This document shows, one piece after another, positions 8,237 to 64,000 of a stretch of 64,000 nucleotides of DNA. The translations under genes were made by a program, and so were the position numbers. Origin of the DNA: Escherichia phage Lw1; the sequence record KC801932. One strand, 5' to 3'. The notes under the pieces are model-generated. The model did no database searches. It saw only the letters and a list, made by a program, of their open reading frames with translations, and had not been told where the DNA came from. The first letter of the stretch is position 1. Each line of letters begins with the position of its first letter.

Positions 8237-9144
8237 TTCAATACCTTTCTGATTTGTTTCGCTATGGCTTCGATCACGGGTATTGAAACTGAATTTCCCG
8301 CTTGACGATATGCCTGTTTTTTACTATCCGGTATGATAAATGAATCAGGGAATCCCTGCAAACGAAAACACTCACGGGGAGTAAGTCTTCTGGGGTTCTT
8401 TCCTTCCTGCAACACCAGACATTGAACGCCGTCCTTGTAATACTGCTGGGTTATCGTCCCAGTGTGCGTAGAATCGCTTGTGACGGCCTGATAACCAAAC
8501 CCCTTACCATTCGCCTTGTTTCGTTCCTTACGCTCTCTAAAGCCTTTCCACGCGTTATCTGATAGGGTGTATGAATCATCAGCATCTTCGAGGATATCGC
8601 CCACTCTCGTAGGGGTACGCGGAGGAACAGGAAACGAAAAGAATACATCATCCAGGAAGCAAACAATAAACACACGTTCACGTCTTTGTGGTAGTCCGAA
8701 ATCTTTTGTATTCAGTCGTTGATAGAATACGTTATATCCTTCGGCCTCCAGAAGCCCGTAAATCGTTTTAAACGTCTTCCCCTTGTCATGGGTTAGTAGT
8801 TCAGGCACGTTCTCAAAGAACAGCACACGGGGCTTTTTAGCGCGTATGATGCGGAGTATTTCAAAGAACACAGTACCGCGAACATCATCGAACCCCAGTT
8901 TTAATCCTGCTTTACTGAATGCCTGACACGGGAACCCAGCCAACAGGATATCGTGATCAGGTACTTCGGTTTCTTTTATCTGGAACAGATCTCCCTGTAG
9001 GTTATCATTGCCCCAGTTTTCGATATATGTTTGCTGTGCGAACTTGTCGATTTCAGACGTTAAAAGGCATTCGACACCGCCGAACGCCTTATCAAATCCT
9101 AATCGAACCCCGCCCACACCAGCACAGAGGTCAATTATTTTCAT
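8233..9144 (-). CDS. DNA (cytosine-5)-methyltransferase, Dcm-like
   Basis: all canonical C5-MTase motifs in order: I DLCAGVGG, IV GFPCQAFS, VI FENVPEL, VIII QRRERVF, IX RLTPRECFRLQGFPDSF, X GNSVSIPV. Confidence 0.9.
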   Translation of the reverse strand: MKIIDLCAGVGGVRLGFDKAFGGVECLLTSEIDKFAQQTYIENWGNDNLQGDLFQIKETEVPDHDILLAGFPCQAFSKAGLKLGFDDVRGTVFFEILRIIRAKKPRVLFFENVPELLTHDKGKTFKTIYGLLEAEGYNVFYQRLNTKDFGLPQRRERVFIVCFLDDVFFSFPVPPRTPTRVGDILEDADDSYTLSDNAWKGFRERKERNKANGKGFGYQAVTSDSTHTGTITQQYYKDGVQCLVLQEGKNPRRLTPRECFRLQGFPDSFIIPDSKKQAYRQAGNSVSIPVIEAIAKQIRKVLK

Positions 9145-9401
9145 ACGTCAAAATCAATCTCGTCAATTTTGTATGAGTTTTCGTCAATGTCCGCCCATAG
9201 GGTTACATTGACGTGTTTACTATCTTCGTACAGATTACGCCCGTTCATCCCGCCCGTGTAATTGCTTTCGGTACGTTCAGTAACTTCCAGTCGGAGGCTA
9301 TCGCGCATGATCTGAACAACAGCCTGTTCCAGCGTAACCGCGTCTGGGTTTTTGGTATCGCCCAGTACAACGTCTTTAACGTTCAAAATAACATCAGTCA
9401 T
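9141..9401 (-). CDS. hypothetical protein (86 aa)
   Basis: ORF. Confidence 0.45.
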   Translation of the reverse strand: MTDVILNVKDVVLGDTKNPDAVTLEQAVVQIMRDSLRLEVTERTESNYTGGMNGRNLYEDSKHVNVTLWADIDENSYKIDEIDFDV

Positions 9402-9685
9402 TAGTAAAATTTCCCATAGGTGTTGAAATTTACGTGCGTCGGGCTTGCTTCTTCAACACGAATTTCATAATCATAATCCTCATTTGTTACGGAACGATCA
9501 TGTTTGATGACATCAACGATATATACCCGGAAGAATGCATGATACAGCGCATCGCGGATCTTTTCAGCAAGTACCGGAGGCTCACTATACAGGTTAATCA
9601 TATCGGAAACAATATCCTCTACGCGAGGAATATCGCGTTTATCAATATAACCAGTATATAAATTTACTTCTTTCATTAATGCCAC
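9401..9685 (-). CDS. hypothetical protein (94 aa)
   Basis: ORF. Confidence 0.45.
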   Translation of the reverse strand: MALMKEVNLYTGYIDKRDIPRVEDIVSDMINLYSEPPVLAEKIRDALYHAFFRVYIVDVIKHDRSVTNEDYDYEIRVEEASPTHVNFNTYGKFY

Positions 9686-9921
9686 TCCGTTTCGATACCG
9701 TATTTGTATGCGTCAATCCCCAGAGGGGTGATCAACAGACACATATCAGTATTTTCGTTTGGCGACTTAAACGCCGCAGTTGCGTAACCTTTTTCAATCA
9801 GGGCATTACGCCCTGATTTACTGGGTACGTCATCGAAATCCAATGTTAACACCTGTGATGCATATCTGTAAAGTTTATACAGCACGTCAATTTCAGCACC
9901 GGATAATTTCGGGAATGTCAT
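9676..9921 (-). CDS. hypothetical protein (81 aa)
   Basis: ORF. Confidence 0.45.
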   Translation of the reverse strand: MTFPKLSGAEIDVLYKLYRYASQVLTLDFDDVPSKSGRNALIEKGYATAAFKSPNENTDMCLLITPLGIDAYKYGIETEWH

Positions 9922-20335: not shown

Positions 20336-21679
20336 TTAAAAGTTGTCTTCGACGAATGCTGCCAGGCGTCCACGATACACAGTATTCAGGATTATGTGAC
20401 TAGCATGGTCATATTCTTTAAGTTTTTCAACAGCATAGACAAAACCGTTGTTTACAGCAGTGTTTCGCGGGTTGTCAATCTGCTTAATATTCCCGCATAG
20501 TATCAGAAGTGTATTCTCTCCGCAACGGGAAATAATGGATTTTATTTCATGGTTGCTCAAGTTTTGACATTCGTCAACAATCAGCACTGAACCTTTACCA
20601 GGATCTGGGTGTCCGATAGAACGCCCACGGAAGTAATACAGGCTAGGGAACTGCACCACGCCTTTTTCCAGAAGTCCTTCAACGTACTTGTCAACTTCCG
20701 GTTGATCCTTAAACAGAATATTCAGGCTCGTGATACACGGTTCAACCGATGGTCGGAGTTTTTCACCCAGAGTACCAGGCAAGAACCCTATTTCACCAGA
20801 CAGCGGACTATCTGCCTTGACATACATCAGGTTTGCGAAGTGTCCCGCGTTAACCATGTGCATTGCGCCAGCAACCGCCAGCATTGTTTTACCCGAACCC
20901 GCCGCACCCATGATGGTCACAACGTCATTGTTCTTGTCCAGGATCGCATCAACGAATGACGCTTGCAGAGCATCGCGGGGCTGAATTGTTTTCATCAGCT
21001 TACGCTTTAACGCTTGTTCGTGCTTAATAGGCAACACTTCAAGCTGAAACTCTCCAGCAGCCACCACACGCCCTACAATCTCACCATCCGATAGAATGTA
21101 TTGGTTAGGGTAGAAATCCGCGTCAGGAAGCGATGAATACGTTATAACGGCAACAGGCCCGACATACTCCATGACTTCGACAGTTTCCCAGAACAGCGGC
21201 AGGTCGATATAACCTGAATACAACACATCACTATCTTTCAGCGAGTCATCGCCAGTGTATTGAAGAACCGGACAACCTTTAGACATCGCGATCAACAGCA
21301 TGTTAATGTCACGAGTCACCAGCGTTGCGCCCTGTTGAATACAGGTTGCAATGATCCGCGCATCCTGTTTATCGAGAGGGAACTCTTCGGGGCCGACATA
21401 ATCGACAATTTTGAGTGTTACACTTTCCGGTACTGCTGGGTTTGTTAAGTTTAACGAAACCCCTGTTTGGGTAATTGCTTCATAATTTTGTCCCAGGATT
21501 GCTTTGGACAATAGCCGGATCGCCAGTCGTGCTTCATGAGCGGTTCGCTCTTTGCTTTTCAGGTGATCCAGTTCTTCCATCGTTGCAGCAGTGATAATAA
21601 TTTCAGTATCAGGTTCGATGAAAGAGTAAACTGAATAGGGGTTCGAGATCAAAACGTTTGTATCGAGAACATATTTCAT
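20336..21679 (-). CDS. phoH: PIN-domain PhoH-like ATPase (YlaK-type)
   Basis: N-terminal PIN-like acidic core (LDTNVL...), Walker A GAAGSGKT, Walker B VDECQN. Confidence 0.8.
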   Translation of the reverse strand: MKYVLDTNVLISNPYSVYSFIEPDTEIIITAATMEELDHLKSKERTAHEARLAIRLLSKAILGQNYEAITQTGVSLNLTNPAVPESVTLKIVDYVGPEEFPLDKQDARIIATCIQQGATLVTRDINMLLIAMSKGCPVLQYTGDDSLKDSDVLYSGYIDLPLFWETVEVMEYVGPVAVITYSSLPDADFYPNQYILSDGEIVGRVVAAGEFQLEVLPIKHEQALKRKLMKTIQPRDALQASFVDAILDKNNDVVTIMGAAGSGKTMLAVAGAMHMVNAGHFANLMYVKADSPLSGEIGFLPGTLGEKLRPSVEPCITSLNILFKDQPEVDKYVEGLLEKGVVQFPSLYYFRGRSIGHPDPGKGSVLIVDECQNLSNHEIKSIISRCGENTLLILCGNIKQIDNPRNTAVNNGFVYAVEKLKEYDHASHIILNTVYRGRLAAFVEDNF

Positions 21680-24880: not shown

Positions 24881-25191
24881 TTACTTTTGATTCTGTTGCA
24901 TTCTTCCGCACACTCTTTTTCCGCAAGGATTTTGCGAACAACCGCGTTTCTGATTTTCCAGAGATAATCGATCATCTGCATATCTTCGGGAGTGTGATAA
25001 CCTTTCATATCGCATTCAAATACGATAGCATCGCGTTCTGACATTGCCATTATCGCGGTAGCCGAACAAATGGTCATCCCACTATATTTTTCAATCAACG
25101 ATTCCAGTGTACGCTTTTCTGCCGGAATGTCAACAGTTATCGGAACAGGACGGATTCTTGTAGTCGAATCGTCGAAGGATTGATAAATCAT
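24865..25191 (-). CDS. hypothetical protein (108 aa)
   Basis: ORF. Confidence 0.45.
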   Translation of the reverse strand: MIYQSFDDSTTRIRPVPITVDIPAEKRTLESLIEKYSGMTICSATAIMAMSERDAIVFECDMKGYHTPEDMQMIDYLWKIRNAVVRKILAEKECAEECNRIKSKWGVL

Positions 25192-26342
25192 TTTAACTCC
25201 ACTGCATAAACATCGGTTTCGGGGGCTTTGTGTACGCGCATATCTTTACCACATACCGCATAAGCCGGACAGTTGCGACAACCGTTATGATCCGTGTTGC
25301 CTGTCAGTTCTTTACGGAACTGTTTTGTTTTCGGGTGTTCCCAGATATCTTTGATAAAATCATCGGCTTCAAGGACATTCAAACCTTCACCCCAGCCACC
25401 TTCAACCCAACGTTCGGTAAACGAGCAAGGGAAGAATTCGCCTTTTTCGTTGATGTAAGAGCTAAACATCGTCGCTTCACAATCTTCCGCATACTGCTTG
25501 TATTGTTCGAAGTTCGGGTGTCCCTCCATCGCTTCAACGAAAGCTGGGGCTGAACAGCTATCGAATCCAAATCCTACACCAGAATCAAGGCAGTATTCAA
25601 CAAGTTTTTTGTATTGTTCGCGGGTGACTGTATCCCAGTTCTTACCACGTCCCTTTTGTTTCAGACCCAGGAACACGATCGCGTTGACTTGTTTCAGGCG
25701 CGGATCATTACGCACAGCATCAACAACGGTAAACGCATCATCATAGGTCTTTGAGCTAACCATGAAATGTAGGTTGATTTGCTGTTGTCCTGCTTCTGCC
25801 AGGTTTGCGACGGAATCGAAAGCAACATCGAAGCCAGCATGTTTATAAACCGATACTGCAACAGCCCCAGCAACCGCCGCTAAACGCGCTGCAACGTCTT
25901 TTGATACATCAGCAATGGTAAGGTTCGGTACAATGCCTTTAGAACGCGCATAGGCCATCATATCGAACATATCAGGGTTTGTTTGTCCCTGTGCATCAGC
26001 ACCGAGTGCGCATTGGGTTAACCAGGGCATTTTATCAATGATGGATTTGAAAGAAGCAAGATCCATATTGTAGCCGTTCGGGTTATTGGACTTGTAACAG
26101 AAACCACACAGCTTACCAGCGGGGCCATTACATTTAGTTGTGATCTCGATATCGAGGATAAAAGGAAAATGACTATAAATAGGATCGTCAGCAGGAGTTT
26201 TGCCCCAAGTCATCATATGACCTGTTTTCATATCAAAATTAAAATTAACCTCTTCGGAACGATAGATTTTCTTTCCTTTCGCTTCCAGTAGAAGTCCAAC
26301 AGGCGTTTTGATATGTTTGGCGTTTACTTTAACGTGTCTCAT
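25188..26342 (-). CDS. Fe-S protein, radical-SAM-like with C-terminal SPASM/twitch-like Cys motif
   Basis: ITTKCNGPAGKLCGFCY (Cx7Cx2C, rSAM-like TxxCN..C.FCY context) and C-terminal CRNCPAYAVC (Cx2Cx5C); start set at MRHVKV with GAGGT RBS. Confidence 0.45.
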   Translation of the reverse strand: MRHVKVNAKHIKTPVGLLLEAKGKKIYRSEEVNFNFDMKTGHMMTWGKTPADDPIYSHFPFILDIEITTKCNGPAGKLCGFCYKSNNPNGYNMDLASFKSIIDKMPWLTQCALGADAQGQTNPDMFDMMAYARSKGIVPNLTIADVSKDVAARLAAVAGAVAVSVYKHAGFDVAFDSVANLAEAGQQQINLHFMVSSKTYDDAFTVVDAVRNDPRLKQVNAIVFLGLKQKGRGKNWDTVTREQYKKLVEYCLDSGVGFGFDSCSAPAFVEAMEGHPNFEQYKQYAEDCEATMFSSYINEKGEFFPCSFTERWVEGGWGEGLNVLEADDFIKDIWEHPKTKQFRKELTGNTDHNGCRNCPAYAVCGKDMRVHKAPETDVYAVELK

Positions 26343-26354
26343 AGGAACCTCATA

Positions 26355-27083
26355 ATGTATTACGTTTACAGAATCACAAATGTTATAGAGAACAAGCACT
26401 ATTATGGATCAAGAAAACCTAAAAAGTCAATGCTTGCTTCCGACGATTTAGGGAAACACTATTTCAGTAGTTCCCGTGATAGTCATTTCATCCAAGATCA
26501 GAAGGAAAATCCAGGACACTACAAATATAAAGTAATCGTATCGGGGTTGTCAAGGGAAAAGGCGATGAAACTTGAGAAAAGGTTACACGAAATCTACAAG
26601 GTGGACACGAACCCACATTTTTATAACAAACACATACACAACAGCGTTGATTTTTCATGTACACCAGAAACAGGAAAGAAGATTTCACAAACACACCAGA
26701 AATATGCAGCAAAGAAAATTTCAGAATCACATAAAAGGCGATTCAAGGAAGGTATAGCATCACATAAAGGAGAGAACAACCCACGATACAACGATCATCG
26801 GTCTTATGAAGAGATACACGGAGAAGAAAAAGCGGAGACTATACGCAAAGCACAATCTGAATCAAGAAGAGGAAAAGGCAATTCCCGCGCGGTTACGTGG
26901 AAATTTACTTCCCCTAATGGAGAAGAATTTTTAGTTGAAGGAGAATGTAAAAAGTTTTGCAAAGACAGAAATATTTCCATGCGTAAACTGAAAACCTATC
27001 TGGGTGAAGTCATCACAACATGCGATAAACCCTACTATATCTCTAAGAATACCGTAGGATGGAAATTAGAAAAGATTATTTGA
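26355..27083 (+). CDS. GIY-YIG homing endonuclease (Seg-like)
   Basis: N-terminal MYYVYRITN...HYYGS (GIY..YIG), basic C-terminal DNA-binding region; lone plus-strand gene among minus-strand genes. Confidence 0.7.
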   Translation: MYYVYRITNVIENKHYYGSRKPKKSMLASDDLGKHYFSSSRDSHFIQDQKENPGHYKYKVIVSGLSREKAMKLEKRLHEIYKVDTNPHFYNKHIHNSVDFSCTPETGKKISQTHQKYAAKKISESHKRRFKEGIASHKGENNPRYNDHRSYEEIHGEEKAETIRKAQSESRRGKGNSRAVTWKFTSPNGEEFLVEGECKKFCKDRNISMRKLKTYLGEVITTCDKPYYISKNTVGWKLEKII

Positions 27084-39138: not shown

Positions 39139-39693
39139 ATGTTGTTCTCATTCTTCCCGCCTGTTGATTATAAAGGCACACCAACTACTGATATCTACCG
39201 CGATTATCGTTTTTACTTCAATCGCGTAATCAGGAATTATAAGCCCCGCACATATCAACTGACAGGATCATTAAGACCTGAACAATTAGCGGAAACGCTA
39301 TACGGAAACCAACAATACTACTGGGTTATCCTGATGCTCAATGATAATTACGATCCGTTCTATGGATGGATTACAGATCAGGAAACCGCTTATCAATGCG
39401 CTGTTCAGCGTTATTCGAAAGTAGGTGGTGAGCAAGTTCTTTACCATATGGACGGACAAAGCAACCGTTATTATAACCTGGTTGAAGATCCGACTAACCC
39501 CGGTCATTGGTATGACAAGGGTGATAAAGATATGCGTTATTTGCAGTATCAGGGAACTTTAGTCCCTGTAGATATTTATGAAGATGCCGTGTTGCAAAAT
39601 GAAGCACTTCGTACCATTAAAATTATCAATCCCTCTGATATTCAATCGTTTGTAAGCGATTATATCAAGGAAATGGAAAAGGCGAACACATGA
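39139..39693 (+). CDS. 53: baseplate wedge subunit gp53
   Basis: MLF.FF.P..Y...TDI.R.Y..YF.R, NDNYDP.YGWIT.QE.AYQ, YDKGDK, collinear with recalled T4 gp53. Confidence 0.85.
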   Translation: MLFSFFPPVDYKGTPTTDIYRDYRFYFNRVIRNYKPRTYQLTGSLRPEQLAETLYGNQQYYWVILMLNDNYDPFYGWITDQETAYQCAVQRYSKVGGEQVLYHMDGQSNRYYNLVEDPTNPGHWYDKGDKDMRYLQYQGTLVPVDIYEDAVLQNEALRTIKIINPSDIQSFVSDYIKEMEKANT

Positions 39694-41456
39694 GATACGG
39701 TGGAAATGCAAACTCCCCGTTTTTTGATGGGGTTGTTGAAGAAGTTGATGACCCGTTATTTCTGGGACGGGTTCGGGTTCGCGTATTTGGTGAACACCCA
39801 GCACAGAAACAGAAATCTGAAACTATCGGTATTCCTGTTGAGGAATTGCCGTGGATGGTTCCTATCCAGAACATCACCAGCGCTGCTGTATCAGGAGTTG
39901 GGTTCTCTCCGACTGGTATCGTAAGAGGTAGCTTTGTATTCGGCGTATGGCGCGATAAATGGCATCAGGACGGCGTTATACTGGGAACCTATGCAGGGCA
40001 GTATGTTGAGAAGCCCGACACTCAGAAAGGCTTCTGTGACCCGTTTGGTGAGTATCCCCGCTACGTTGGTAACGATGTCAACGTATTGGCTCGTGGTGGT
40101 GTAGAAGGTAGGACATCAAGTAGTGTTGTTATCCGTGATGCAAACAGTTCATTGGCAGTAAACCCAGACGATCGCCCACTGGACGAAATACCGGAAGATA
40201 ACCGACCGGACACTGGCGGTTTCACCATTGAAACAATGATCAAGCAGGATGAAGGTATTCGGTTGACGTGGTATTATGATGTTAAAGGTTATACAATCGG
40301 GATTGGACACTTTTTCTTAACCGCTCCACAAGGTACAGATCCGGCAGTTGTTAACGCAGCGTTATCTAAACAAATTGGTAGAACTGTTACTGGTGTTCCT
40401 GGATCAATCACAGCAGAAGAAGCGGGCGTTTTATTTCAGCAAGATTTAGCTAAAGTTCATAGAGATATTCAGAATAATAGCAAAGTTCGTGAAGTATATC
40501 ATGATCTTAACCGTCCGCGCCAGATGGCTATTGAAAACATGTGCTTTCAGATGGGTGTTGGTGGTGTAGCAAAATTTACAAATGCTCTGGCTGCTATGAA
40601 GAGTCAGGACTGGCAAACCGCCTACAACGAACTGAGAAACTCAACATGGGCTAACCAGACACCAGGACGTTCTTCACGCGTATCTAAAATCGTGCTGACC
40701 GGAAACCTTGAATCATATGGTGTTATGGTTCCAGATCCAGAAGGAAGAAGCCTAAGCGCTGCTTATAACGCTGTAGTTCTGCAAGCCAGTAACCCAGAAG
40801 ACCCTTTTGTTCCTGGTGATACCCGTGTAATGTTCGAGGAACCAAAATCTGCATACGCTGCTGAATATCCTTACAATATGGTGTTTGAATCTCGTTCGGG
40901 ACATATTCAAGAATTCGACGATACACCAGGATTTGAACGTTATAACCGCGTTCACCCGGCAGGGACATATGAAGAAATTCGTCCTGATGGAAGCCGTGTC
41001 GTAAAAATTATGGGTGATGATTATCAGATTGTTATGCAGGGCAGGAAACTGAACGTTAAAGGCAATTTGCAAGTGGTAGTCGAAGGTGATGCGTTCATTT
41101 ACAATATGGGTAACGTTCAACAGACTGTTGATGGAAACGTAACTGAGTTCGTGCGCGGTAACGTAAACCAGACTGTCGAGGGTGAATATGTGGGACGCGT
41201 AAAAGGTAACGCAGAATTAACCGTCGAAAAAGATGCTACTATAAACGTGGATCAGAATTTAATGGCTAACGTTAAACAGAATGCAACTGTTAACGTAACC
41301 GAAGATGCAACTGTTACCGCAAAAAATGCGATGATGGATATTGAACAAGACTTCGATTTAAACGCGAACAATATCACAATGGTTGCCCGACAAAATACAT
41401 TAATAGATTCCGGTTCTCTGACTAAGATAACTGGTGGAACAGTCCAGGTAGGTTAA
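39690..41456 (+). CDS. 5: baseplate central spike / tail lysozyme gp5
   Basis: N-terminal OB domain (LGRVRVRVFGEH), T4-lysozyme-type domain (GYTIGIGHF), C-terminal beta-helix VxGxxxxxVEG repeats. Confidence 0.9.
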   Translation: MRYGGNANSPFFDGVVEEVDDPLFLGRVRVRVFGEHPAQKQKSETIGIPVEELPWMVPIQNITSAAVSGVGFSPTGIVRGSFVFGVWRDKWHQDGVILGTYAGQYVEKPDTQKGFCDPFGEYPRYVGNDVNVLARGGVEGRTSSSVVIRDANSSLAVNPDDRPLDEIPEDNRPDTGGFTIETMIKQDEGIRLTWYYDVKGYTIGIGHFFLTAPQGTDPAVVNAALSKQIGRTVTGVPGSITAEEAGVLFQQDLAKVHRDIQNNSKVREVYHDLNRPRQMAIENMCFQMGVGGVAKFTNALAAMKSQDWQTAYNELRNSTWANQTPGRSSRVSKIVLTGNLESYGVMVPDPEGRSLSAAYNAVVLQASNPEDPFVPGDTRVMFEEPKSAYAAEYPYNMVFESRSGHIQEFDDTPGFERYNRVHPAGTYEEIRPDGSRVVKIMGDDYQIVMQGRKLNVKGNLQVVVEGDAFIYNMGNVQQTVDGNVTEFVRGNVNQTVEGEYVGRVKGNAELTVEKDATINVDQNLMANVKQNATVNVTEDATVTAKNAMMDIEQDFDLNANNITMVARQNTLIDSGSLTKITGGTVQVG

Positions 41457-41458
41457 TC

Positions 41459-43531
41459 ATGATCATGGATTATGAAACGATAATTGATGGAATTATGCAA
41501 AATTTTCAGCATCCTTGTGATGCTGAAATACCTGCTGGATCGTACAGACGTATTATCTGGCAGGGACATACAGAAGACTACCCCGCTGTTGGGGTAGAAT
41601 GGGATACTGAAATCATTCCGATCGGGACGCATCTTTACACGCAATCCCCGTTCGGACAGAAAAGCGATCCGCTTCCGGTAGTCAACTCCCCAGGAACCGA
41701 TCCAGGAACTGGGGAAGCAACCGGGATTCTGGTAGAGAAGATTGGTTATTATTTCACCACACAACAGGAAATTGACGATTATATCACTTCTATTGGTGCA
41801 ACGAAACTAACTGGTAACGATTGGTACGGCGCGGATCTGACAAAAGCAAACCTGTTTAAAAATCCGGGGGAACTCGCAATGTATAAAGTCGAGAACTCTG
41901 GTGGTTATCTGATGACTTCTGGACCTCGCTGTGATCCACGTATCAGACAGGCTTATAACGTCGATACAGGGGCGTTTACGAGCATTGATTACGATTGGAA
42001 TGGTAATCGTATTGCTTACATGAAACATGACGACACAGGGGCGCACAATTGCAAATACGTAGGGATGATGGTCAACACCAACGCAGATACGAGCATTCCT
42101 CCGGTTCCTCCGGCTATGCCGTCTGTGTATGGTGCGTTACCGAGCGAAATTTCAATGATGCGATCTGGTTTGGGTTGTGTTCCGGCGACCGTTGGGTTTG
42201 CCTACACAAACATCAGTGATGCGATGCTCGAAGCATGGAACGAAACCAGGAAATCATTCAAACTTGTATTTGACATGCTTTCTGGGATCACTAAATCGGG
42301 TTCTGGTGGTATTTCTACAATGTATGATGGTTTGTGTATCGCGATGGAAGAAATTGCAGCAGGTGCTCTTGCTTTATCCCAGCAAGCATGGCAAGCCGCA
42401 ATGAAAGTGTTTCGTGATGTTATTTCATCAGCATTGAACATTGTAGGTGGTGCGTGGGACATGATAAAAAGTTTTCTGCCTACGGTGACCATTATGGGTG
42501 TGTCGATAAACATATACGATCTGATTTTTGGTGATAACTCTGTTCAGACACTAAAAGACGCATTTCAGGCAATCATTGATTCTGGTGTACAAACATATGA
42601 AGCAATCATAAACGAAATATATGCCACTATAGGCAGTGTTTACAATTATGCGGTAGAATATGTCAAGGCTGGCGCTAGAGACCTCGTAGACGCGTGTAGT
42701 GCGTTATTTGATTGGTGTATTACTATGTTCCAGAATGGTTGTGTGGCACTGGTTGATTTATACGGAAGGATCATGCAGATCTGGTCAATGCCTCCGATGG
42801 TTCCAAACCCGTTATGGGCTGCTGTTTTGGCTATCAGAAACATCCTTATGCAGATCAAACCTCTTGATATAATTTTAAGCGGTAACTTTCCTGGTTTTAC
42901 TGCGATGGACTTGTACCAATGGGCGCAAGAAAAAGTCAAGGAATTTATTGATCAATCATACGAACAGATACGCGGATATTATGAACAGGCTAAAAATCTT
43001 TACAACATGCTAACATCGCAGACTCAGGAAAGGGATGCAATAAAACGTAAATTTGACCAGTATCTTAACTGGATGTGGGGTGCTGTTACTGATGCTGCTA
43101 CCGCTGCATATCAGGCCGCGTTGGACGCTGCAAACGAAGCAATCGAACAAACAAAGGCAATGATAGATGGTGTTAAAGCACAGATAGCCGCTCTACAGGA
43201 CGCGTTGAAAGACACGTACAGTCTCGCAATGGAAGAGTTAAAGAAACTGCCTATCATGCAGCAGATTAACGAATTCTTAGGCTACTGTGGTATTGCTTTC
43301 GATGACTTACTGAAAACGTATGATAACGCGGTTACGGGCGCAAAATCCCTGTATAAAAACTTTGTGGACAGTTCCCGATCGTTCAAGGATACCTGCAAGG
43401 TGATATACAACCAGATATGTACGCTGGCACTAAGTAAGGTGACTCAATACGTGAATAAACTGTTGTCTCTAATCGGACTGATGATCAATTTCGCATCAAT
43501 CAATATTTGCGTTCCGATGATTCAACTATAA
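41459..43531 (+). CDS. large hypothetical protein (690 aa) between genes 5 and 6
   Basis: ATG 3 nt after gene 5 stop; predominantly helical with hydrophobic stretches and hydrophobic C-terminus; no T4 counterpart of this size recalled at this locus. Confidence 0.6.
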   Translation: MIMDYETIIDGIMQNFQHPCDAEIPAGSYRRIIWQGHTEDYPAVGVEWDTEIIPIGTHLYTQSPFGQKSDPLPVVNSPGTDPGTGEATGILVEKIGYYFTTQQEIDDYITSIGATKLTGNDWYGADLTKANLFKNPGELAMYKVENSGGYLMTSGPRCDPRIRQAYNVDTGAFTSIDYDWNGNRIAYMKHDDTGAHNCKYVGMMVNTNADTSIPPVPPAMPSVYGALPSEISMMRSGLGCVPATVGFAYTNISDAMLEAWNETRKSFKLVFDMLSGITKSGSGGISTMYDGLCIAMEEIAAGALALSQQAWQAAMKVFRDVISSALNIVGGAWDMIKSFLPTVTIMGVSINIYDLIFGDNSVQTLKDAFQAIIDSGVQTYEAIINEIYATIGSVYNYAVEYVKAGARDLVDACSALFDWCITMFQNGCVALVDLYGRIMQIWSMPPMVPNPLWAAVLAIRNILMQIKPLDIILSGNFPGFTAMDLYQWAQEKVKEFIDQSYEQIRGYYEQAKNLYNMLTSQTQERDAIKRKFDQYLNWMWGAVTDAATAAYQAALDAANEAIEQTKAMIDGVKAQIAALQDALKDTYSLAMEELKKLPIMQQINEFLGYCGIAFDDLLKTYDNAVTGAKSLYKNFVDSSRSFKDTCKVIYNQICTLALSKVTQYVNKLLSLIGLMINFASINICVPMIQL

Positions 43532-43534
43532 ATA
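43527..43534 (+). promoter_or_regulatory. T4-type late promoter TATAAATA upstream of gene 6
   Basis: exact TATAAATA 20 nt upstream of the gene 6 ATG. Confidence 0.6.
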
Positions 43535-43554: not shown

Positions 43555-45468
43555 ATGGCTACCGTAAAGAAACAAATTAATCAGATCCCCGATATTTTCG
43601 TCGGGGCTACTTTTGATGAAATCAAATCAGATTTAATTAACTGGCTTCGTGGTCAGGAAGAATTTAAGGATTACGATTTCGCTGGCTCTCGTATGAACGT
43701 ACTGGTTGACCTGCTTTCGTATACTACACTGTACATTCAGCAAATGAGTAACACCGCACTATTCGAATCATTCATTCGAACTGCGGCGCTTCGTAGTTCT
43801 GTTGTACAAAAGGCTCAGGATCTGGGATATATGCCGGACTCTCGCACCGCTGCAAATACCTCGATTCTAATTACTGCAAAGAACCCGCTGAACCCTACGT
43901 CAATTCGTATTCCACGAGGGACGAAGTTTATCGGTACTGTAAAAGAAACAAACAGCTTCCCGTTTGTCGTATCCGATGACGTGGTGATCGTGCGTGACAA
44001 AGACAACAACTATGTTTCTATGTTAAACATTGTCCAGGGGCGTTTAGTTCGTACTGAGGTAATCTACGATGGTTCTACTATCCTGATTCGCGATCCGAAT
44101 ATAGACCGTAACCAGGTGCGTGTGTCTATCAACGGGGCGCAATGGGATGACTGGACAAACGAAAGTATCGTAAACGCAACGGGCGCAAGTACCGTGTTTT
44201 ATATGCGGGAAACCGTTGACGGACACACTGAGGTTTACTTTGGTGAAGGTGAAACCAGTCAACAGGTGGCAGGTGGTGCTCTTACCGCTGACTACATCGG
44301 GGGCTTGAAACCTGCTAACGGTTCTGTCGTTGTTATTGAATATATTTCAACCAATGGCGAAGAAGCAAACGGTGCGGAAAACTTTGTTTACGTGGATACG
44401 TTGACAAATATCAGCATTACAAGTATTGTTGAGAACCCGACCAACTCTCAGGACTACGTAGGTGCTGATGGTGGCGGTGAACCGGAAGACATTGAGCGTA
44501 TTCGTGAACTTGCTCCGATCATGCGTGAAACACAACGTCGTTGTGTTACTGCGTCGGATTATGAATCGTTCCTGTCTCACAGATTCGGTTCGGTGATCCA
44601 AGCTGTACAGTGCTTTACTGACAGTGAAAAACCTGGATATGCGTTTATCGCGGTTAAACCGAAATCAGGGTTGCGCTTAACCTCTGTGCAGAAAGAGGAT
44701 ATGCAAAACTATCTGGCGAAGTATAACCTTGCGACGATCACGCCGTCTATTCTCGACCCTAACTATCTGTATATTGTACAAAACATCAAAGTTACGTATG
44801 ATATCAGTAAATTGATTGAGTCAGAAGAATGGCTTCGTGGTCAGGTAATCAACGAAATCGACAAATACTATACTGATAACGTTGAAATTTTCAACAAATC
44901 ATTCAGTAAGTCCAAGATGTTGACCTATGTTGATAACGCGGACGTGTCGATCATCGGTTCTTCTGCAACGATTAACATGTTGCGTGAACTCGATAACTAT
45001 TACAGTGCTCCGATGTCTGGTATTCATTTCTTAAACCAGGTCGCATCACGATCCATTATATCGAACGGATTCAAGTATACAAATGCTGATGACGATTCAT
45101 ATGATGTGCGTTATGCGTCTACTGATATGGACACTACGACCGGACTTGCTAAAATCGTAATAGGGCCATTTAAAGATGGTGATATCTCAATCACTCCGTA
45201 TGCTGGGGATGATTTCGATAAATACCCTGGGGTGACGGACAGAACGAAATACTATGAGGTCGGTTATGTTGAACATTACAACGACTTCATTAGCTTCGAT
45301 CTGGGTGTTTTAAACGTCCCATCAGAACGCTTTAGCGCTGCTTATATCGAACTGACGGCTAAACCATTAGAGGAAACTATCTTTACCCGTGATGGTTCTC
45401 TGATTGTGTTTGAAAACGATCTGCGTCCTCAATATACCACGTTGACGATGAACCCGATCAGCCAATAA
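43555..45468 (+). CDS. 6: baseplate wedge subunit gp6
   Basis: IP.IFVG.TF.EIK..LI.WL.GQ.EF.DYDF.GSR.NVL.DLL.Y.TLYIQQ recalled from T4 gp6. Confidence 0.85.
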   Translation: MATVKKQINQIPDIFVGATFDEIKSDLINWLRGQEEFKDYDFAGSRMNVLVDLLSYTTLYIQQMSNTALFESFIRTAALRSSVVQKAQDLGYMPDSRTAANTSILITAKNPLNPTSIRIPRGTKFIGTVKETNSFPFVVSDDVVIVRDKDNNYVSMLNIVQGRLVRTEVIYDGSTILIRDPNIDRNQVRVSINGAQWDDWTNESIVNATGASTVFYMRETVDGHTEVYFGEGETSQQVAGGALTADYIGGLKPANGSVVVIEYISTNGEEANGAENFVYVDTLTNISITSIVENPTNSQDYVGADGGGEPEDIERIRELAPIMRETQRRCVTASDYESFLSHRFGSVIQAVQCFTDSEKPGYAFIAVKPKSGLRLTSVQKEDMQNYLAKYNLATITPSILDPNYLYIVQNIKVTYDISKLIESEEWLRGQVINEIDKYYTDNVEIFNKSFSKSKMLTYVDNADVSIIGSSATINMLRELDNYYSAPMSGIHFLNQVASRSIISNGFKYTNADDDSYDVRYASTDMDTTTGLAKIVIGPFKDGDISITPYAGDDFDKYPGVTDRTKYYEVGYVEHYNDFISFDLGVLNVPSERFSAAYIELTAKPLEETIFTRDGSLIVFENDLRPQYTTLTMNPISQ

Positions 45469-54386: not shown

Positions 54387-56675
54387 ATGATTTCAAAACT
54401 TAACCCGTTACCAAAGATCCCGTTTGTTGATGGTGTCCCTTCGGACACCACACAAACCCCGATCAGTTGGATTCTTAACGGTGAGACTCTCGACGGGGCC
54501 AAAACAAAGGTCACTAGCGAGGGTTCTTTAAACAGATGCGGCGTTCTGGTTCAAAAGAACGCGGTGCAATTGGAAACAAACACCATTACGCAAACGGCAA
54601 AAATCAACGAAGTTATCGATCAAGTTAACCTCATTAGTGAAAACCTCGCGGCTATTTCTGATGAAAGCGTGATCGAAAAACTGGATCAGGTCGTTGCTGA
54701 TGTGGAAGTGTTAAAAGTCGATATGACTGCGGTTCAAGGTTCTACCGCAAGCAATACCCTGAAAATTCAGGATCTCGATAAAGATATCGGGACATGGGAT
54801 GCTACAACAGATCCAAAACACCGAACCATTCGCAAAGATATTATTTTTCTGAAAGGGGAAATGGGCGCATATCCTGGATTTAATCAGGACGGTGACGTAG
54901 ATCCTACTTCAACTGGCTCTGGAATGAAATACAAAATCATGACGAACGCGCAAGCGATTTCGATTCATGAAGGGCGTATTACCAGACTGGAAGACGATTG
55001 GGCCAACTCAGATGTAGGCCATTTAACTGATGAAGTTACCGACTTGCGTAATGAAATGGGGCCGAAACATTTAGCAACGTTTGAATCGGTGTACGTTCGT
55101 CTGAATAAAATTGGTACGGATATCACTGGGATTAATACCGAACTGACAGAAATCAACCAATATATCGGTCGTACTGGTACAGGTGGTTCTGGAAGTATTT
55201 CTGCTCGAATGACTACGGCAGAAACGAATATTGTTACTCTGCAAACGCAGATGAATGATTCTTCCGTTGGTGTTCTTCCTCGCGTAATTTCTCTTGAAAA
55301 CCAAGTTGGGAATTCGCAGGTTCCGGGTAGTATTCGTTATGATATCAGTAATATCAAACGTGACATTAGCGACCTGAATATGGTTGTTGGTGAATCAAGC
55401 GATGAAGGGCTACGGGGCGAAATGGCTCAGGTTATGTCCGATATCGGTACAGATTCACAACCTACAAGCATTAAAGGCCGTCTGCTTAACGTAGAGAATA
55501 CGCAGCGCGACGATCACCAGCGTTTGATTGATGTCGAATCTATTGTTGGTAACACCTCAAGCGGACTTGTTGCGGCTAACATCGCAATGGGTAAAGCGGT
55601 TTATGGTGATGCAACCAGTTCAGATCCGTTCCTCAAAGACGGTATTCAGAAAACGACTCGCGATAGCAAAACTGCAATTGGTGTCAACACTACAGGTTCT
55701 GAAACTGGAATCTATAAGTTGATTTCCGATCTGACTGCTCGTGTTGCTGCTCTGGAAAGTGGTTCTGGTAGTGATCTCGAACAGCGTGTTTCCGATCTTG
55801 AAGTCAATAAAGCATCGCATCAGGACGTTACAAACGCACTGGTTCCGTATATTACTGAAACTGAGGCCGATATCAAGTACGAACCGAAGAAGATTCCGCT
55901 TGCGTTCACTCAAAACCTCGTTGGTCGAAATGATTATATCGAAGGTGATGACATTTCTCTGATGGTTACTGTATCTGGTGGTAAAGTCCCTTATGCGTAC
56001 CAGTGGAAGAAAGACAACGCGAACGTAGGTACGAACGCATCAAGTTTGATGATCCAGACCATCACATCGGCTAACGCTGGCGTGTATAAGGTTGAAGTAA
56101 CTGACGCAGATAACACGGTTATCACTTCTAACGAATTGACAATTGCTGTTTATCCGGTTCCTCAGTTCGATACTAACCTGGCTGATAAATCAGTGGTTGA
56201 CGGTGATCCTCTGACTCTGGAAGTTGTGTATAGCGGCGGTAAACCTTCGTACACTTACGAGTGGTTCAAAGATAACTCTGTTATCTCTGGGGCAACATCA
56301 GCAACATTTACCAAATCTGCGGTTACAAGTGCCGATGCTGGTGAATACTATGTTTCTGTGACTGACTCGATGAACAACCAAAATGATTCAGTGAAAGCAA
56401 ATGTGACGGTAACACCACGTCCTGCACTGGCATTCACTACGGATCTGAGTTCTACTAAATCATATAGCACAGGTGCTGATATGGACCTTGCTGTTGTCGT
56501 AACTGGTGGTAAAACACCATATACGTACAAATGGTTTAAAGACACTGCGGAAATTTCCGGTCAGACAGGCGCAAGCCTTACCACTGTAGCAGAAGATGGA
56601 GTGTATAAAGTCGAAGTGACTGATGCACTAACGACTAAAATCACATCAACTGAATGCACGGTAACTGTTGCATAA
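54387..56675 (+). CDS. wac: fibritin (wac, whisker) with three C-terminal Ig-like domains
   Basis: N-terminus LP.IPFVDG......ISWI.NGE..GA.T...SEGS.NR like recalled T4 Wac; central coiled-coil heptads; three about 85-aa repeats (GGK.PY.Y.WFKD....G.....T..A..GVYKVEVTD) replace the foldon. Confidence 0.75.
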   Translation: MISKLNPLPKIPFVDGVPSDTTQTPISWILNGETLDGAKTKVTSEGSLNRCGVLVQKNAVQLETNTITQTAKINEVIDQVNLISENLAAISDESVIEKLDQVVADVEVLKVDMTAVQGSTASNTLKIQDLDKDIGTWDATTDPKHRTIRKDIIFLKGEMGAYPGFNQDGDVDPTSTGSGMKYKIMTNAQAISIHEGRITRLEDDWANSDVGHLTDEVTDLRNEMGPKHLATFESVYVRLNKIGTDITGINTELTEINQYIGRTGTGGSGSISARMTTAETNIVTLQTQMNDSSVGVLPRVISLENQVGNSQVPGSIRYDISNIKRDISDLNMVVGESSDEGLRGEMAQVMSDIGTDSQPTSIKGRLLNVENTQRDDHQRLIDVESIVGNTSSGLVAANIAMGKAVYGDATSSDPFLKDGIQKTTRDSKTAIGVNTTGSETGIYKLISDLTARVAALESGSGSDLEQRVSDLEVNKASHQDVTNALVPYITETEADIKYEPKKIPLAFTQNLVGRNDYIEGDDISLMVTVSGGKVPYAYQWKKDNANVGTNASSLMIQTITSANAGVYKVEVTDADNTVITSNELTIAVYPVPQFDTNLADKSVVDGDPLTLEVVYSGGKPSYTYEWFKDNSVISGATSATFTKSAVTSADAGEYYVSVTDSMNNQNDSVKANVTVTPRPALAFTTDLSSTKSYSTGADMDLAVVVTGGKTPYTYKWFKDTAEISGQTGASLTTVAEDGVYKVEVTDALTTKITSTECTVTVA

Positions 56676-59996: not shown

Positions 59997-62336
<2,340 letters not shown>

Positions 62337-62354
62337 ATTAGAGGAAATTCTATA

Positions 62355-64000
62355 ATGGCTTTACAATCTCCAGGTATTGAAACCAAAGAAACATCGGTAC
62401 AATCTACCGTTGTTCGAAATTCAACTGGTCGCGCTGCCATTGTTGGTAAATTTTCATGGGGGCCAGCTTATCAGATCCGTCAGATTTCTAACGAAGTCGA
62501 ACTGGTAAACTATTTTGGTTCCCCAGACAACCTAACCGCTGATTATTTCATGAGTGCTGTTAACTTCTTGCAGTACGGTAATGATCTCCGTGTGGTTCGT
62601 GTTGTCGATAAAGATGCCGCAAAAAACGCAAGCGCAATTTTTAACCAGATCAAAACAACCATTGCTTCGCAGGGTTCCAACTACACCGTTGGCGACGTAA
62701 TTAAGGTAAAATATAGCAACAACGTAGTTGAAGAAAATGGTAAAGTGTCAAAAGTTGACAGTAACGGCAAAATCCTTGCGGTAGTCATCCCAAGCGAAAA
62801 AATCGTTGCTCGTGCAAAACAGATCGGGACTTATCCAGATATTTCTACTGGCTGGACTACTGAAATCGTTTCTCAGTCTTCTGGTGTGTCTGCGTCAATC
62901 ACGATCGATGGTATCGAAAGCGATTCTGGTATCACTCTGCTGAACCTGGATATTGCTAAAGAAACCATTCAAGGAACTGCGTTCCAGACACTGACCCAGA
63001 AATACCAGATCCCATCTGTTGTGGCTCTGTATCCTGGCGAACTGGGTTCTACTGTAGAGGTGGAGATTATCTCCAAAGCTGCTTACGATTCTGGCGCTAT
63101 GATTTCCGGTTTCCCTTCTGGGATCTCCGTTAAAAACAGCGGTCGCTCTGTGATGACTTATGGTCCACAGACCGAAAACCAGTACGCTTTTGTTGTGCGT
63201 CGTGGTGGTATTGTACAAGAATCTTTCATCGTGTCAACAGAAAAAACCGACAAAGATATCTACGGCGTAAACATCTATATGGATGACTTTTTCGCTAACG
63301 GTGGTTCACAGTACGTATTCGGTACTTCTATGAACTGGCCTAAAGGCTTCTCCGGTATTCTAGAATTTGGTGGTGGTTTGTCCTCAAACGACACCGTAGG
63401 CGCTGATGAACTGATGACTGGTTGGGATATGTTCGCTGATCGCGAAGCCCTTCACGTCCCGCTGCTGATTGCTGGTGCTTGTGCTGGTGAAACCGTAGAA
63501 GTAATGTCTACTGTTCAGAAGCATGTTATCTCGATCGGTGACGAACGTCAGGATTGTACTGTGTTTGTATCGCCTCCGCGTTCTCTTCTGGTGAACATTC
63601 CTCTTGCTCAGGCAGTGGATAACATCGTTGAATGGCGTATGGGATATACAATCAGTGGTAACACTCCGGTAGACAACAACCTGAACGTAAGTTCAAGCTA
63701 TGGCTTCCTGGATGGTAACTATAAATATCAGTATGATAAATACAATGACGTGAACCGCTGGGTTCCGCTGGCAGGTGATATCGCTGGCCTGTGTGTTTAC
63801 ACTGATAGCGTTGCGCAACCGTGGATGTCTCCGGCTGGTTACAACCGTGGTCAGATCCGTAACTGCATTAAACTGGCTATTGAACCGCGTACTGCACACC
63901 GTGACGCGATGTATCAAGTTCAGATTAACCCGGTAACAGGTTTTGCAGGTGGCTCTGGTTTCGTTCTGTTCGGTGATAAAACACTGACTAATGTTCCGAG
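62355..64000 (+). CDS. 18: tail sheath protein gp18 (3'-truncated by window end)
   Basis: MALQSPGIETKETSVQSTVV.NSTG.AA..GKF.WGPA.QI.Q..NEV.LVN.FG and FLQYGNDLRVVR recalled from T4 gp18; TATAAATT 16 nt upstream of ATG. Confidence 0.9.
   Translation, partial: MALQSPGIETKETSVQSTVVRNSTGRAAIVGKFSWGPAYQIRQISNEVELVNYFGSPDNLTADYFMSAVNFLQYGNDLRVVRVVDKDAAKNASAIFNQIKTTIASQGSNYTVGDVIKVKYSNNVVEENGKVSKVDSNGKILAVVIPSEKIVARAKQIGTYPDISTGWTTEIVSQSSGVSASITIDGIESDSGITLLNLDIAKETIQGTAFQTLTQKYQIPSVVALYPGELGSTVEVEIISKAAYDSGAMISGFPSGISVKNSGRSVMTYGPQTENQYAFVVRRGGIVQESFIVSTEKTDKDIYGVNIYMDDFFANGGSQYVFGTSMNWPKGFSGILEFGGGLSSNDTVGADELMTGWDMFADREALHVPLLIAGACAGETVEVMSTVQKHVISIGDERQDCTVFVSPPRSLLVNIPLAQAVDNIVEWRMGYTISGNTPVDNNLNVSSSYGFLDGNYKYQYDKYNDVNRWVPLAGDIAGLCVYTDSVAQPWMSPAGYNRGQIRNCIKLAIEPRTAHRDAMYQVQINPVTGFAGGSGFVLFGDKTLTNVP

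What the first reader, a model, noticed from the sequence alone, without database searches (positions are those of the whole stretch)
41459..43531. 690-aa helical protein inserted between spike gene 5 and wedge gene 6
In T4 only small ORFs (5.1-5.4, including the PAAR-like spike tip) lie between genes 5 and 6. Here a 690-aa ORF starts 3 nt after the gene 5 stop, and its own stop overlaps the TATAAATA late promoter of gene 6. The product is largely helical with amphipathic and hydrophobic stretches and a hydrophobic C-terminus, features of membrane-interacting ejection or tape-measure-like proteins. Its position next to the spike suggests a baseplate-hub or spike-associated cargo delivered at infection.
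Basis: partly seen in the sequence, partly recalled or inferred. Interest (0 to 1): 0.65.

Follow-up and report, generated by a model that had tools for sequence, protein, structure and literature searches.

The report
Large non-PAAR tail-spike tip protein
This 690-residue gene is the RB43 "orf205w"-type protein, which T4-like phages carry in place of the small PAAR spike-tip gene; it most likely caps the tail spike, an idea already published but unproven, and here supported by natural gene swaps.

Summary
The ORF is real (41459-43531, +, 690 aa) and sits between gp5 and gp6 as described. It is a 91%-identical ortholog of RB43 orf205w (phrog_5296), a narrow family confined to T4-like phages of Enterobacterales. 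Two papers (bioRxiv 2025, PMC12407873; Viruses 2026, PMC13611949) already propose it as an unusual spike-tip protein replacing gp5.4, without proof. New evidence here: (1) no PAAR, gp5.1 or gp5.3 anywhere in the complete RB43 and G8 genomes or in the window. (2) Across 79 IMG/VR gp5 loci, orf205 and gp5.4 never co-occur. (3) All 11 carriers, and none of the 68 others, have gp5 ending K[IV][TS]G[GA]xVQVG. (4) Carriers are polyphyletic. Phage G8 is about 98% T4 on both flanks, but gene 5 codon ~500 up to gene 6 is replaced by [gp5 tip + orf205]; SP18 versus VR25 shows the same swap. (5) AlphaFold2 is confident (pLDDT 88): an N-terminal domain with no detectable known fold plus long helical hairpins. 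It is not a tape measure: a gp29 ortholog exists elsewhere and the TMP similarity is compositional. Verdict: most likely a non-PAAR spike tip (confidence about 0.75). The kind is already known; biochemical proof is still missing.

The parts
39690..41456 (+). gene 5: baseplate hub subunit, tail lysozyme and beta-helical spike (588 aa)
   Evidence: Pfam Gp5_OB 1.6e-64, Phage_lysozyme, Gp5_C, Gp5_trimer_C; phrog_430.
41187..41453 (+). Last ~90 codons of gene 5 (aa ~500-588): the part of the spike that is exchanged together with the downstream tip gene
   Evidence: In G8 vs T4, DNA homology ends at gene 5 codon ~500. In SP18 vs VR25 it ends at codon ~520. In both pairs it resumes 11-16 nt before gene 6.
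41409..41453 (+). gp5 C-terminal 15 aa, SGSLTKITGGTVQVG: a type-specific terminal strand and the inferred docking surface
   Evidence: The motif K[IV][TS]G[GA]xVQVG$ is present in 11/11 orf205 loci and 0/68 others. Within-type identity is 72%, against 29% for the preceding 30 aa and 20% between types.
41446..41452 (+). Shine-Dalgarno-like AGGTAGG inside the last gp5 codons, 6 nt before the orf205 ATG (translational coupling)
   Evidence: The sequence and its equivalents in all carriers are shown. The junctions are TAAnnATG, TAAtATG or an overlapping TAATG.
41459..43531 (+). orf205w-type gene (690 aa; alternative start at 41465): putative non-PAAR spike-tip protein
   Evidence: phrog_5296 full length, E=0; 91% identical to RB43ORF205w; AF2 pLDDT 88, pTM 0.79.
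41459..42148 (+). N-terminal alpha/beta domain (aa 1-~230) with no detectable known fold; holds many invariant residues (C20, R30, R31, W48, W122-D126, E145, N146, C198)
42341..43471 (+). Helical region (aa 295-671) with long helices 295-329, 405-442, 482-536, 545-582, 638-671
43058..43081 (+). Conserved segment Q-Y-L-x-G/W-M-W-E (aa 534-541) at the turn between the two longest helices
   Evidence: Y535 is invariant; Q534 is kept in 43/46 and M539 in 42/46 sequences, while the flanking helices are the least conserved part of the protein.
43499..43525 (+). Hydrophobic, conserved C-terminal beta-strand (aa 681-689, NICVPMIQL) with a C-x-P motif; similar conserved strands lie at aa 239-245 (C-V-P) and 340-350 (L-P)
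   Evidence: DSSP strands; hydropathy maximum; conservation of the three strands. Their role as the base that contacts gp5 is inference.
43527..43534 (+). TATAAATA, a match to the T4 late-promoter consensus, overlapping the stop codon 21 nt upstream of gene 6
   Evidence: Exact match. Present in the window, RB43 and a CfP1-like locus only, and absent in other carriers.
43555..45468 (+). gene 6, baseplate wedge subunit: the right-hand boundary of the exchangeable cassette
   Evidence: Five Pfam Gp6 domains. Homology between swapped phage pairs resumes just upstream of its ATG.

Best explanation
The gene encodes a large, non-PAAR spike-tip protein. It is translated directly after gp5 from the same late mRNA. 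One copy (stoichiometry inferred from the literature) docks on the blunt C-terminal end of the trimeric gp5 beta-helix. There it takes the place that gp5.4, and possibly gp5.1, occupy in T4. On sheath contraction it is the first part of the virion to be driven into the cell envelope, and it is then released with the gp5-gp27 complex into the periplasm. Shown here: its position, its coupling to gp5, its strict mutual exclusivity with PAAR, its co-inheritance with a type-specific gp5 terminus, and its predicted fold. Taken from the literature: the extra density at the RB43 spike tip. Inferred: the docking geometry, the copy number, and any role of the helical hairpins or the N-terminal domain in envelope penetration.
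For: (1) The gene sits directly after gene 5 in every carrier examined, with a stop/start spacing of -1 to +5 nt and an SD-like sequence inside the last gp5 codons. (2) Nine diverse PAAR queries and a PAAR HMM find nothing in the complete RB43 genome, the complete G8 genome or the window, while the T4 control is found. gp5.1 and gp5.3 are also absent. gp5.4 is otherwise detectable in 1471 phage records, out to Campylobacter and jumbo phages. (3) Of 79 IMG/VR gp5 loci, 11 have orf205, 57 have gp5.4 and none has both. (4) The gp5 C-terminal motif K[IV][TS]G[GA]xVQVG is in 11/11 carriers and 0/68 others. The last 15 aa are 72% identical within each type, against 29% (orf205 type) and 48% (gp5.4 type) just upstream, 56% for the body, and 20% between types. 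The gp5.4 type shows the same peak of conservation at its crystallographically defined interface (PMC12407873). (5) Carriers fall in at least 5 places on a tree of the gp5 body. SP18 and VR25, of the same genus, share gp53 at 96.5%, gp6 at 98.2% and gp5 aa 1-480 at ~100%, but the last ~80 aa at only 17-37%. G8 is 98.4% and 97.4% identical to T4 at the nucleotide level on the two flanks, with gene 5 codon ~500 up to gene 6 replaced. (6) The AF2 model is confident. (7) The literature reports a larger density at the RB43 spike tip at 17.7 A (PMC12407873) and an AF3 model of Helios gp203 seated on the gp5 trimer (PMC13611949).
Against: I found no virion proteomics or immunolabelling for any family member. 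The published attempt to co-express the RB43 protein with gp5-beta failed, and those authors call the assignment 'possible' (PMC12407873). The cryo-EM map is at 17.7 A with C6 symmetry imposed. Co-inheritance of the gp5 terminus could partly reflect simple linkage: homologous recombination can only break in the conserved part of gene 5. The last 3-4 gp5 codons are also constrained by the embedded ribosome-binding site. A 76 kDa, mostly helical tip is an odd shape for a piercing device. I could not run a multimer prediction or inspect model coordinates.
Confidence: 0.75

Rival explanations
1. It is a tape-measure-like or ejection protein housed in the tail-tube or hub lumen. After contraction it would insert into the inner membrane to form or assist the DNA channel.
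For: Weak PHROG hits of aa ~250-675 to tape-measure families (E 1e-12 to 1e-7). Three genuine tape measures hit the family profile at E 1e-6 to 1e-4. Some records annotate it as a 'tail length tape measure protein'. It has a hydrophobic C-terminus.
Against: RB43 and G8 each carry a separate gp29-type tail-length protein in the hub cluster. hhalign of the family against RB43 ORF103w gives 1.2%. Equally good weak hits go to apolipoprotein-like proteins in a bacterial chromosome and a small non-phage contig, so the similarity is compositional. Foldseek against viral tape measures gives E > 0.6. The co-swapped partner is the outer tip of gp5, not gp27 or the tube. No segment reaches a clear transmembrane hydropathy apart from the conserved C-terminal strand.
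Confidence: 0.05
2. It is a non-virion assembly factor, such as a chaperone or trimerisation/capping catalyst, specific for the variant gp5 C-terminus. The extra tip density in RB43 would then come from the longer gp5 helix or from another protein.
For: Tight translational coupling to gp5 and co-inheritance with the gp5 terminus would also be expected for a dedicated chaperone. There is no proteomic proof of virion presence. The RB43 record annotates another candidate, ORF128w, as a 'tail needle knob'.
Against: ORF128w has no counterpart in this window, so it cannot be the general tip. If orf205 were not in the virion, carriers would have no tip protein at all, although PAAR is otherwise near-universal in this group. 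At 690 aa with a conserved two-domain fold, it is large for a chaperone. The authors fit the predicted protein into the tip density (PMC12407873).
Confidence: 0.12
3. It is an unrelated accessory gene, for example superinfection exclusion, anti-defence or host takeover. It would merely occupy a recombination hot spot next to gene 5 and hitch-hike with it.
For: In T4 the 5-6 interval is a variable region that also hosts the homing endonuclease segC. The cassette is evidently mobile.
Against: The gene lies in a late structural operon with overlapping or near-overlapping reading frames on both sides. It is perfectly exclusive with PAAR rather than randomly distributed. It is conserved at full length, down to 36% identity, only in this slot. 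The gp5 terminus shows type-specific purifying selection.
Confidence: 0.05

Closest known systems
RB43 orf205w / Klebsiella phage Helios gp203 (putative spike-tip protein; Mattenberger et al. bioRxiv 2025, PMC12407873; Viruses 2026, PMC13611949)
   Same: It is an ortholog: 91% identity to RB43ORF205w, with the same length, the same slot between genes 5 and 6 and the same PHROG. The secondary-structure layout is the same (N-terminal alpha/beta part, then helices). The triple coiled-coil segments reported for Helios (287-327, 398-440, 631-670) coincide with helices 295-329, 405-442 and 638-671 in my model.
   Different: Nothing essential; the window comes from a different phage (~87% nt identity to Citrobacter phage Miller and RB43). 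My AF2 model is high-confidence, whereas the 2025 preprint reported low confidence.
T4 gp5.4 (PAAR repeat protein, PDB 4KU0): the canonical spike tip
   Same: It has the same genomic slot downstream of gene 5 and the same inferred partner (the blunt end of the gp5 beta-helix). It is mutually exclusive with gp5.4 across genomes, and in both types the gp5 terminus is conserved in a type-specific way.
Phage P1 UpfC (PAAR) plus UpfB (alpha-helical tripods on the spike tip; PMC12810830)
   Same: It is a precedent for a large alpha-helical structure at the distal end of a myophage spike. UpfB is encoded next to the tip gene.
   Different: UpfB is not homologous (hhalign 0.2%). It is 281 aa, trimeric, and attaches to a PAAR protein, whereas carriers of orf205 have no PAAR at all.
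T4 gp29 and phage tape-measure proteins
   Same: Both have long amphipathic helices. There are weak profile matches.
   Different: A separate gp29 ortholog is present, with no homology to it. The weak matches are compositional. The gene is not in the hub/tube cluster.
T4 gp5.1 (function unknown; proposed in PMC13611949 to sit beside gp5.4)
   Same: gp5.1 is lost together with gp5.4 wherever orf205 is present, so orf205 may replace both.
   Different: No detectable homology (hhalign 0.4%).

Membership tests
RB43 orf205w family (phrog_5296) | Full-length sequence homology | tested here: met
   phrog_5296 E=0, covering aa 3-689 against profile positions 1-684 of 685; 91% identity to RB43ORF205w; 54 clusters of ~670-717 aa.
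RB43 orf205w family (phrog_5296) | Located immediately downstream of gene 5 and upstream of gene 6 (or gp25/gp6) | tested here: met
   Window; RB43, PM2, SP18 and G8; the divergent member P0055; 11 IMG/VR loci.
RB43 orf205w family (phrog_5296) | Partner gp5 ends with the ...K(I/V)(T/S)G(G/A)xVQVG motif | tested here: met
   The window gp5 ends in SGSLTKITGGTVQVG. The motif is in 11/11 carriers and 0/68 non-carriers.
RB43 orf205w family (phrog_5296) | Genome lacks a PAAR/gp5.4 gene | tested here: met
   No hit in the 64 kb window or in the complete RB43 and G8 genomes; the positive control was found. The rest of this phage's own genome is not available.
Spike-tip proteins (functional class) | Physically bound to the distal end of the central spike in the virion | not testable with these tools
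   Only indirect support: genetic co-inheritance and published 17.7 A density plus AF3 models (PMC12407873, PMC13611949).
PAAR repeat proteins (gp5.4, Pfam PAAR_motif) | PAAR-motif sequence homology | tested here: not met
   No Pfam PAAR hit; hhalign against T4 gp5.4 gives probability 0.1%.
PAAR repeat proteins (gp5.4, Pfam PAAR_motif) | Small conical beta-structure fold | tested here: not met
Tail tape-measure proteins (gp29 type) | Homology to the phage's tail-length determinator or to TMP families | tested here: not met
   hhalign against RB43 ORF103w gives 1.2%. The PHROG TMP hits are weak and are matched by hits to apolipoprotein-like non-phage proteins. Foldseek against viral TMPs gives E > 0.6.
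Tail tape-measure proteins (gp29 type) | Is the only candidate length determinator and sits in the hub/tube gene cluster | tested here: not met
   RB43 has 27-28-ORF103w/104w-48-54 at 59-66 kb. [quoted passage not shown]
P1 UpfB tripod | Sequence homology to UpfB | tested here: not met
   hhalign probability 0.2%.

The most novel reading that the evidence does not exclude
The protein is more than a passive cap. It would be a bifunctional penetration module that replaces both gp5.1 and gp5.4. Its N-terminal domain of unknown fold, rich in invariant residues, would bind or modify an envelope component such as the LPS core. Its long helical hairpins, with the conserved QYLxGMWE turn, would refold into or destabilise a membrane after release, in the manner of alpha-helical pore formers or T3SS translocators. 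Exchanging the [gp5 tip + orf205] cassette for [gp5 tip + 5.1 + 5.4] would then be a natural way for T4-like phages to change which envelope types they can penetrate.
Probability: 0.2. Interest if true: 0.7.

Novelty: already known. Interest (0 to 1): 0.45.

Why it matters
Nearly all contractile injection systems sharpen their spike with a small PAAR protein. A 76 kDa helical replacement challenges the idea that a sharp metal-bound cone is required, and in T4 the tip determines whether deep-rough LPS hosts can be infected (PMC12407873). The hypothesis is already in print. This analysis adds a strong comparative-genomic argument and a ready-made experimental system. G8, SG1 and PD112-type phages are about 98% T4 on both flanks but carry the alternative tip cassette. 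This makes isogenic T4/G8 cassette swaps, knockouts and host-range tests on LPS mutants directly feasible. It also shows that the 'tape measure' annotations appearing in GenBank for this family are wrong.

Tried and rejected
(1) Tape-measure homology. It was rejected after finding a separate gp29 ortholog, a negative hhalign result and evidence that the weak hits are compositional.
(2) A PAAR fold hidden in the N-terminus. It was rejected.
(3) Homology to gp5.1 or to P1 UpfB. Both were rejected.
(4) RB43ORF128w, annotated 'tail needle knob', as the general tip protein. It was rejected because it is absent from this window.
(5) A search for solved structures by sequence found only coiled-coil noise.
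(7) Searches for virion proteomics of any carrier phage found nothing. The KP15/KP27 paper has no mass spectrometry. The Jiaodavirus paper concerns gp5.4-type phages. The Morganella MP1 table lists neither gp5 nor the gene after it, so it is uninformative. The vB_EcRAM-01 paper has no LC-MS.
(8) TATAAATA as a conserved gene 6 promoter. It matches only in a subset of RB43-like phages and the octamer is not enriched in the window.

Full report
OBSERVATION. Upstream lie gp53 (39139-39693) and gp5 (39690-41456; Pfam Gp5_OB, Phage_lysozyme, Gp5_C). Downstream lie gp6 (43555-45468), gp7, gp8 and gp9. Two bases separate the gp5 stop codon (41454-41456) from the ATG. An exact TATAAATA at 43527-43534 overlaps the ORF's stop codon, 21 nt before gene 6. 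In T4 the same interval holds 5.1, segC, 5.3 and 5.4. The octamer is not enriched in the window (6 found against 3.25 expected), and at this site it occurs only in a subset of RB43-like phages. A second ATG at 41465 matches the start of most homologs.

WHAT IT IS. The window comes from an RB43-like phage (Pseudotevenvirus), about 87% nt identical to Citrobacter phage Miller and to RB43. The protein matches phrog_5296 ('unknown function') over its full length. It is 91% identical to RB43ORF205w. tblastn finds it in 215 phage records, all T4-like phages of Enterobacterales, nearly always annotated 'hypothetical' and occasionally 'tape measure' or 'baseplate hub'. It occupies the same slot in RB43, Proteus PM2 (Bragavirus), Shigella SP18 (Gaprivervirus) and E. 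coli phage G8 (Tequatrovirus). The family is narrow. A word-indexed search of 5.8 billion proteins returned 54 clusters, almost all ~670-717 aa and at least 36% identical. An exhaustive profile search of 1.84 billion representatives found only about eight full-length clusters plus fragments. One of the two most divergent members (P0055) again sits between a gp5 C-terminus and gp25/gp6/gp7/gp8.

PRIOR LITERATURE. Mattenberger et al. (bioRxiv 2025, PMC12407873) solved the T4 gp5.4 structure. They note that RB43, RB16 and Lw1 lack gene 5.4 and instead carry orf205w at that locus. Their 17.7 A map of the RB43 baseplate shows a larger density at the spike tip. Co-expression with gp5-beta failed, their AlphaFold model had low confidence, and they say the tip is 'possibly' encoded by orf205w. 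A Viruses 2026 paper (PMC13611949) modelled the Slopekvirus homolog (Helios gp203) on the gp5 trimer with AlphaFold3 and describes a triple coiled-coil core. It states that the function 'has not been established experimentally' and speculates that the protein is an analogue of gp5.1 plus gp5.4. So the core idea is published but unproven.

NEW TESTS. (a) Absence of PAAR. T4 gp5.4 is detectable by tblastn in 1471 phage records, out to Campylobacter and jumbo phages. Yet nine diverse PAAR queries (including P1 UpfC) and a PAAR HMM against six-frame ORFs find nothing in the complete RB43 genome, the complete G8 genome or the window, while every query finds the T4 control. gp5.1 and gp5.3 are also absent.

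(b) Mutual exclusivity. Among 79 IMG/VR loci retrieved with a gp5 alignment, 11 carry orf205 directly after gp5 and 57 carry gp5.4, nearly all of those with 5.1 as well. Eleven carry neither (distant or truncated loci), and none carries both.

(c) A type-specific gp5 terminus. All 11 carriers have gp5 ending in K[IV][TS]G[GA]xVQVG, as do the window, RB43, PM2 and SP18. None of the 68 other loci does. Within each type the last 15 residues are about 72% identical. That compares with 29% (orf205 type) or 48% (gp5.4 type) for the preceding 30 residues, 56% for the gp5 body and 20% between types. In the gp5.4 type this terminus is the crystallographically defined interface, and the orf205 type shows the same conservation pattern.

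(d) Cassette exchange. On a tree of gp5 residues 1-480, carriers fall in at least five places. SP18 (orf205) and VR25 (5.1 + 5.4) belong to the same genus. They share gp53 at 96.5%, gp6 at 98.2% and gp5 residues 1-480 at ~100%, but the last ~80 residues at only 17-37%. DNA homology ends at gene 5 codon ~520 and resumes 11 nt before gene 6. Phage G8 is more striking still. It is 98.4% and 97.4% identical to T4 on the two flanks, but everything from gene 5 codon ~500 to 16 nt before gene 6 is replaced by [gp5 tip + orf205]. SG1, JEP6, F26, BYEP01, PD112 and sutha carry the same cassette at 99% identity or more. So the functional unit that moves is the distal ~70-90 residues of the spike together with the tip gene, and it works in a T4 baseplate.

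(e) Coupling. In all carriers the gp5 stop and the orf205 start are separated by 1-5 nt (TAAtATG, TAAnnATG and one longer variant) or overlap (TAATG). The last gp5 codons (GTN CAG GTN GGN) form an SD-like AGGT(A/G)GG. This also means that part of the VQVG conservation may be a nucleotide-level constraint.

NOT A TAPE MEASURE. RB43 has a hub cluster 27-28-ORF103w/104w-48-54-51-26-25. ORF103w and ORF104w together cover the gp29-type profile phrog_7361, which is related to phrog_1283 'tail length'. G8 has an annotated tail-length gene. The weak tape-measure hits for orf205 are accompanied by equally weak hits to apolipoprotein-like amphipathic-helix proteins in a bacterial chromosome and a small non-phage contig. 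They therefore reflect composition rather than ancestry.

MECHANISM (best explanation, ~0.75). The gene is translated just after gp5. The protein caps the blunt end of the gp5 beta-helix through a type-specific interface and so replaces gp5.4, and perhaps gp5.1. On contraction it leads the spike into the envelope. By analogy with T4, where the gp5.4-gp5-gp27 complex is released (bioRxiv 10.64898/2026.03.06.709160), it would end up in the periplasm. Whether the helical hairpins or the N-terminal domain act on LPS or on a membrane is open.

RIVALS. The rivals are a lumenal tape-measure-like ejection protein (0.05), a dedicated non-virion assembly factor for the variant gp5 end (0.12), and an unrelated accessory gene hitch-hiking in a hot spot (0.05). 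The main weakness of the preferred reading is the lack of any direct protein-level evidence. Linkage alone also predicts some of the co-inheritance.

NOVELTY AND SCORE. The gene is an ortholog of a protein already singled out in two papers as a putative non-PAAR spike tip, so the kind is already known. The additions here are the genome-wide and population-wide exclusivity with PAAR, the demonstration of repeated cassette exchange including near-isogenic T4 chimeras, a high-confidence fold with an N-terminal domain that has no detectable structural relative, and the rejection of the tape-measure annotation. Interest is 0.45: a genuinely unusual spike tip whose function is still untested, but not a new discovery.

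Noticed in passing
window 54387-56675 (+): The fibritin (wac) homolog is 762 aa. Its Fibritin_C region lies at aa 373-489 and is followed by ~270 extra residues with Ig-like and SprB-repeat Pfam hits, whereas T4 fibritin ends at the foldon.
   Followed up: no
window 25188-26399 (-) and 26174-27083 (+): A 403-aa minus-strand ORF carries a SPASM iron-sulfur domain. It overlaps a 256-aa plus-strand ORF (26313-27083, no Pfam hit) that lies 139 nt downstream of an exact TATAAATA at 26174-26181, in an otherwise minus-strand early region. This may be an unannotated late gene or a chance ORF.
   Followed up: no
RB43 genome, L007:10894-12625 (record 60894-62625): RB43's gp29-type tail-length protein is split into ORF103w (457 aa) and ORF104w (105 aa), which cover profile positions 1-459 and 476-579 of phrog_7361. 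This could be a frameshift, a sequencing error or a genuine split.
   Followed up: partly
RB43 genome, L007:25291-25989; window 9144-9918: RB43ORF128w matches the 'tail needle knob' family phrog_1030 (E 1e-73). It lies on the opposite strand to its early-gene neighbours, and it has no counterpart at the syntenic site or anywhere else in this window.
   Followed up: partly
L019 / L094 (Escherichia phage vB_EcoM_G8, NC_054915.1 76177-79987): A recognised Tequatrovirus species that is ~98% T4 on both flanks carries the orf205 cassette instead of 5.1-segC-5.3-5.4. The same cassette, at 99% identity or more, is in Salmonella phage SG1, JEP6, F26, BYEP01, PD112 and sutha.
   Followed up: yes
L058:5791-7900 (IMG/VR 3300045988_066415): In this divergent carrier the orf205 homolog is followed by a terminator-like GC hairpin plus a T-run, and no gp6 lies within the next ~2 kb. 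The local gene order therefore differs from all other carriers.
   Followed up: no
window 3401-5620 (-), 20336-21679 (-): There is a 739-aa protein with an N-terminal von Willebrand A domain, and a PIN-PhoH fusion protein. Both are typical RB43-group accessory genes of unknown role.
   Followed up: no
window 1-64000: There is no tRNA gene and no Rfam family at gathering threshold in the whole 64 kb window.
   Followed up: yes
GenBank records PP889464.1, PP889458.1, PP889503.1, PP889462.1, PQ657798.1, PQ657829.1, PP337149.1, MZ612130.1: Orthologs of this gene are annotated 'tail length tape measure protein' or 'baseplate hub structural protein' in several recent records. The tape-measure label is not supported by the tests here.
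   Followed up: yes
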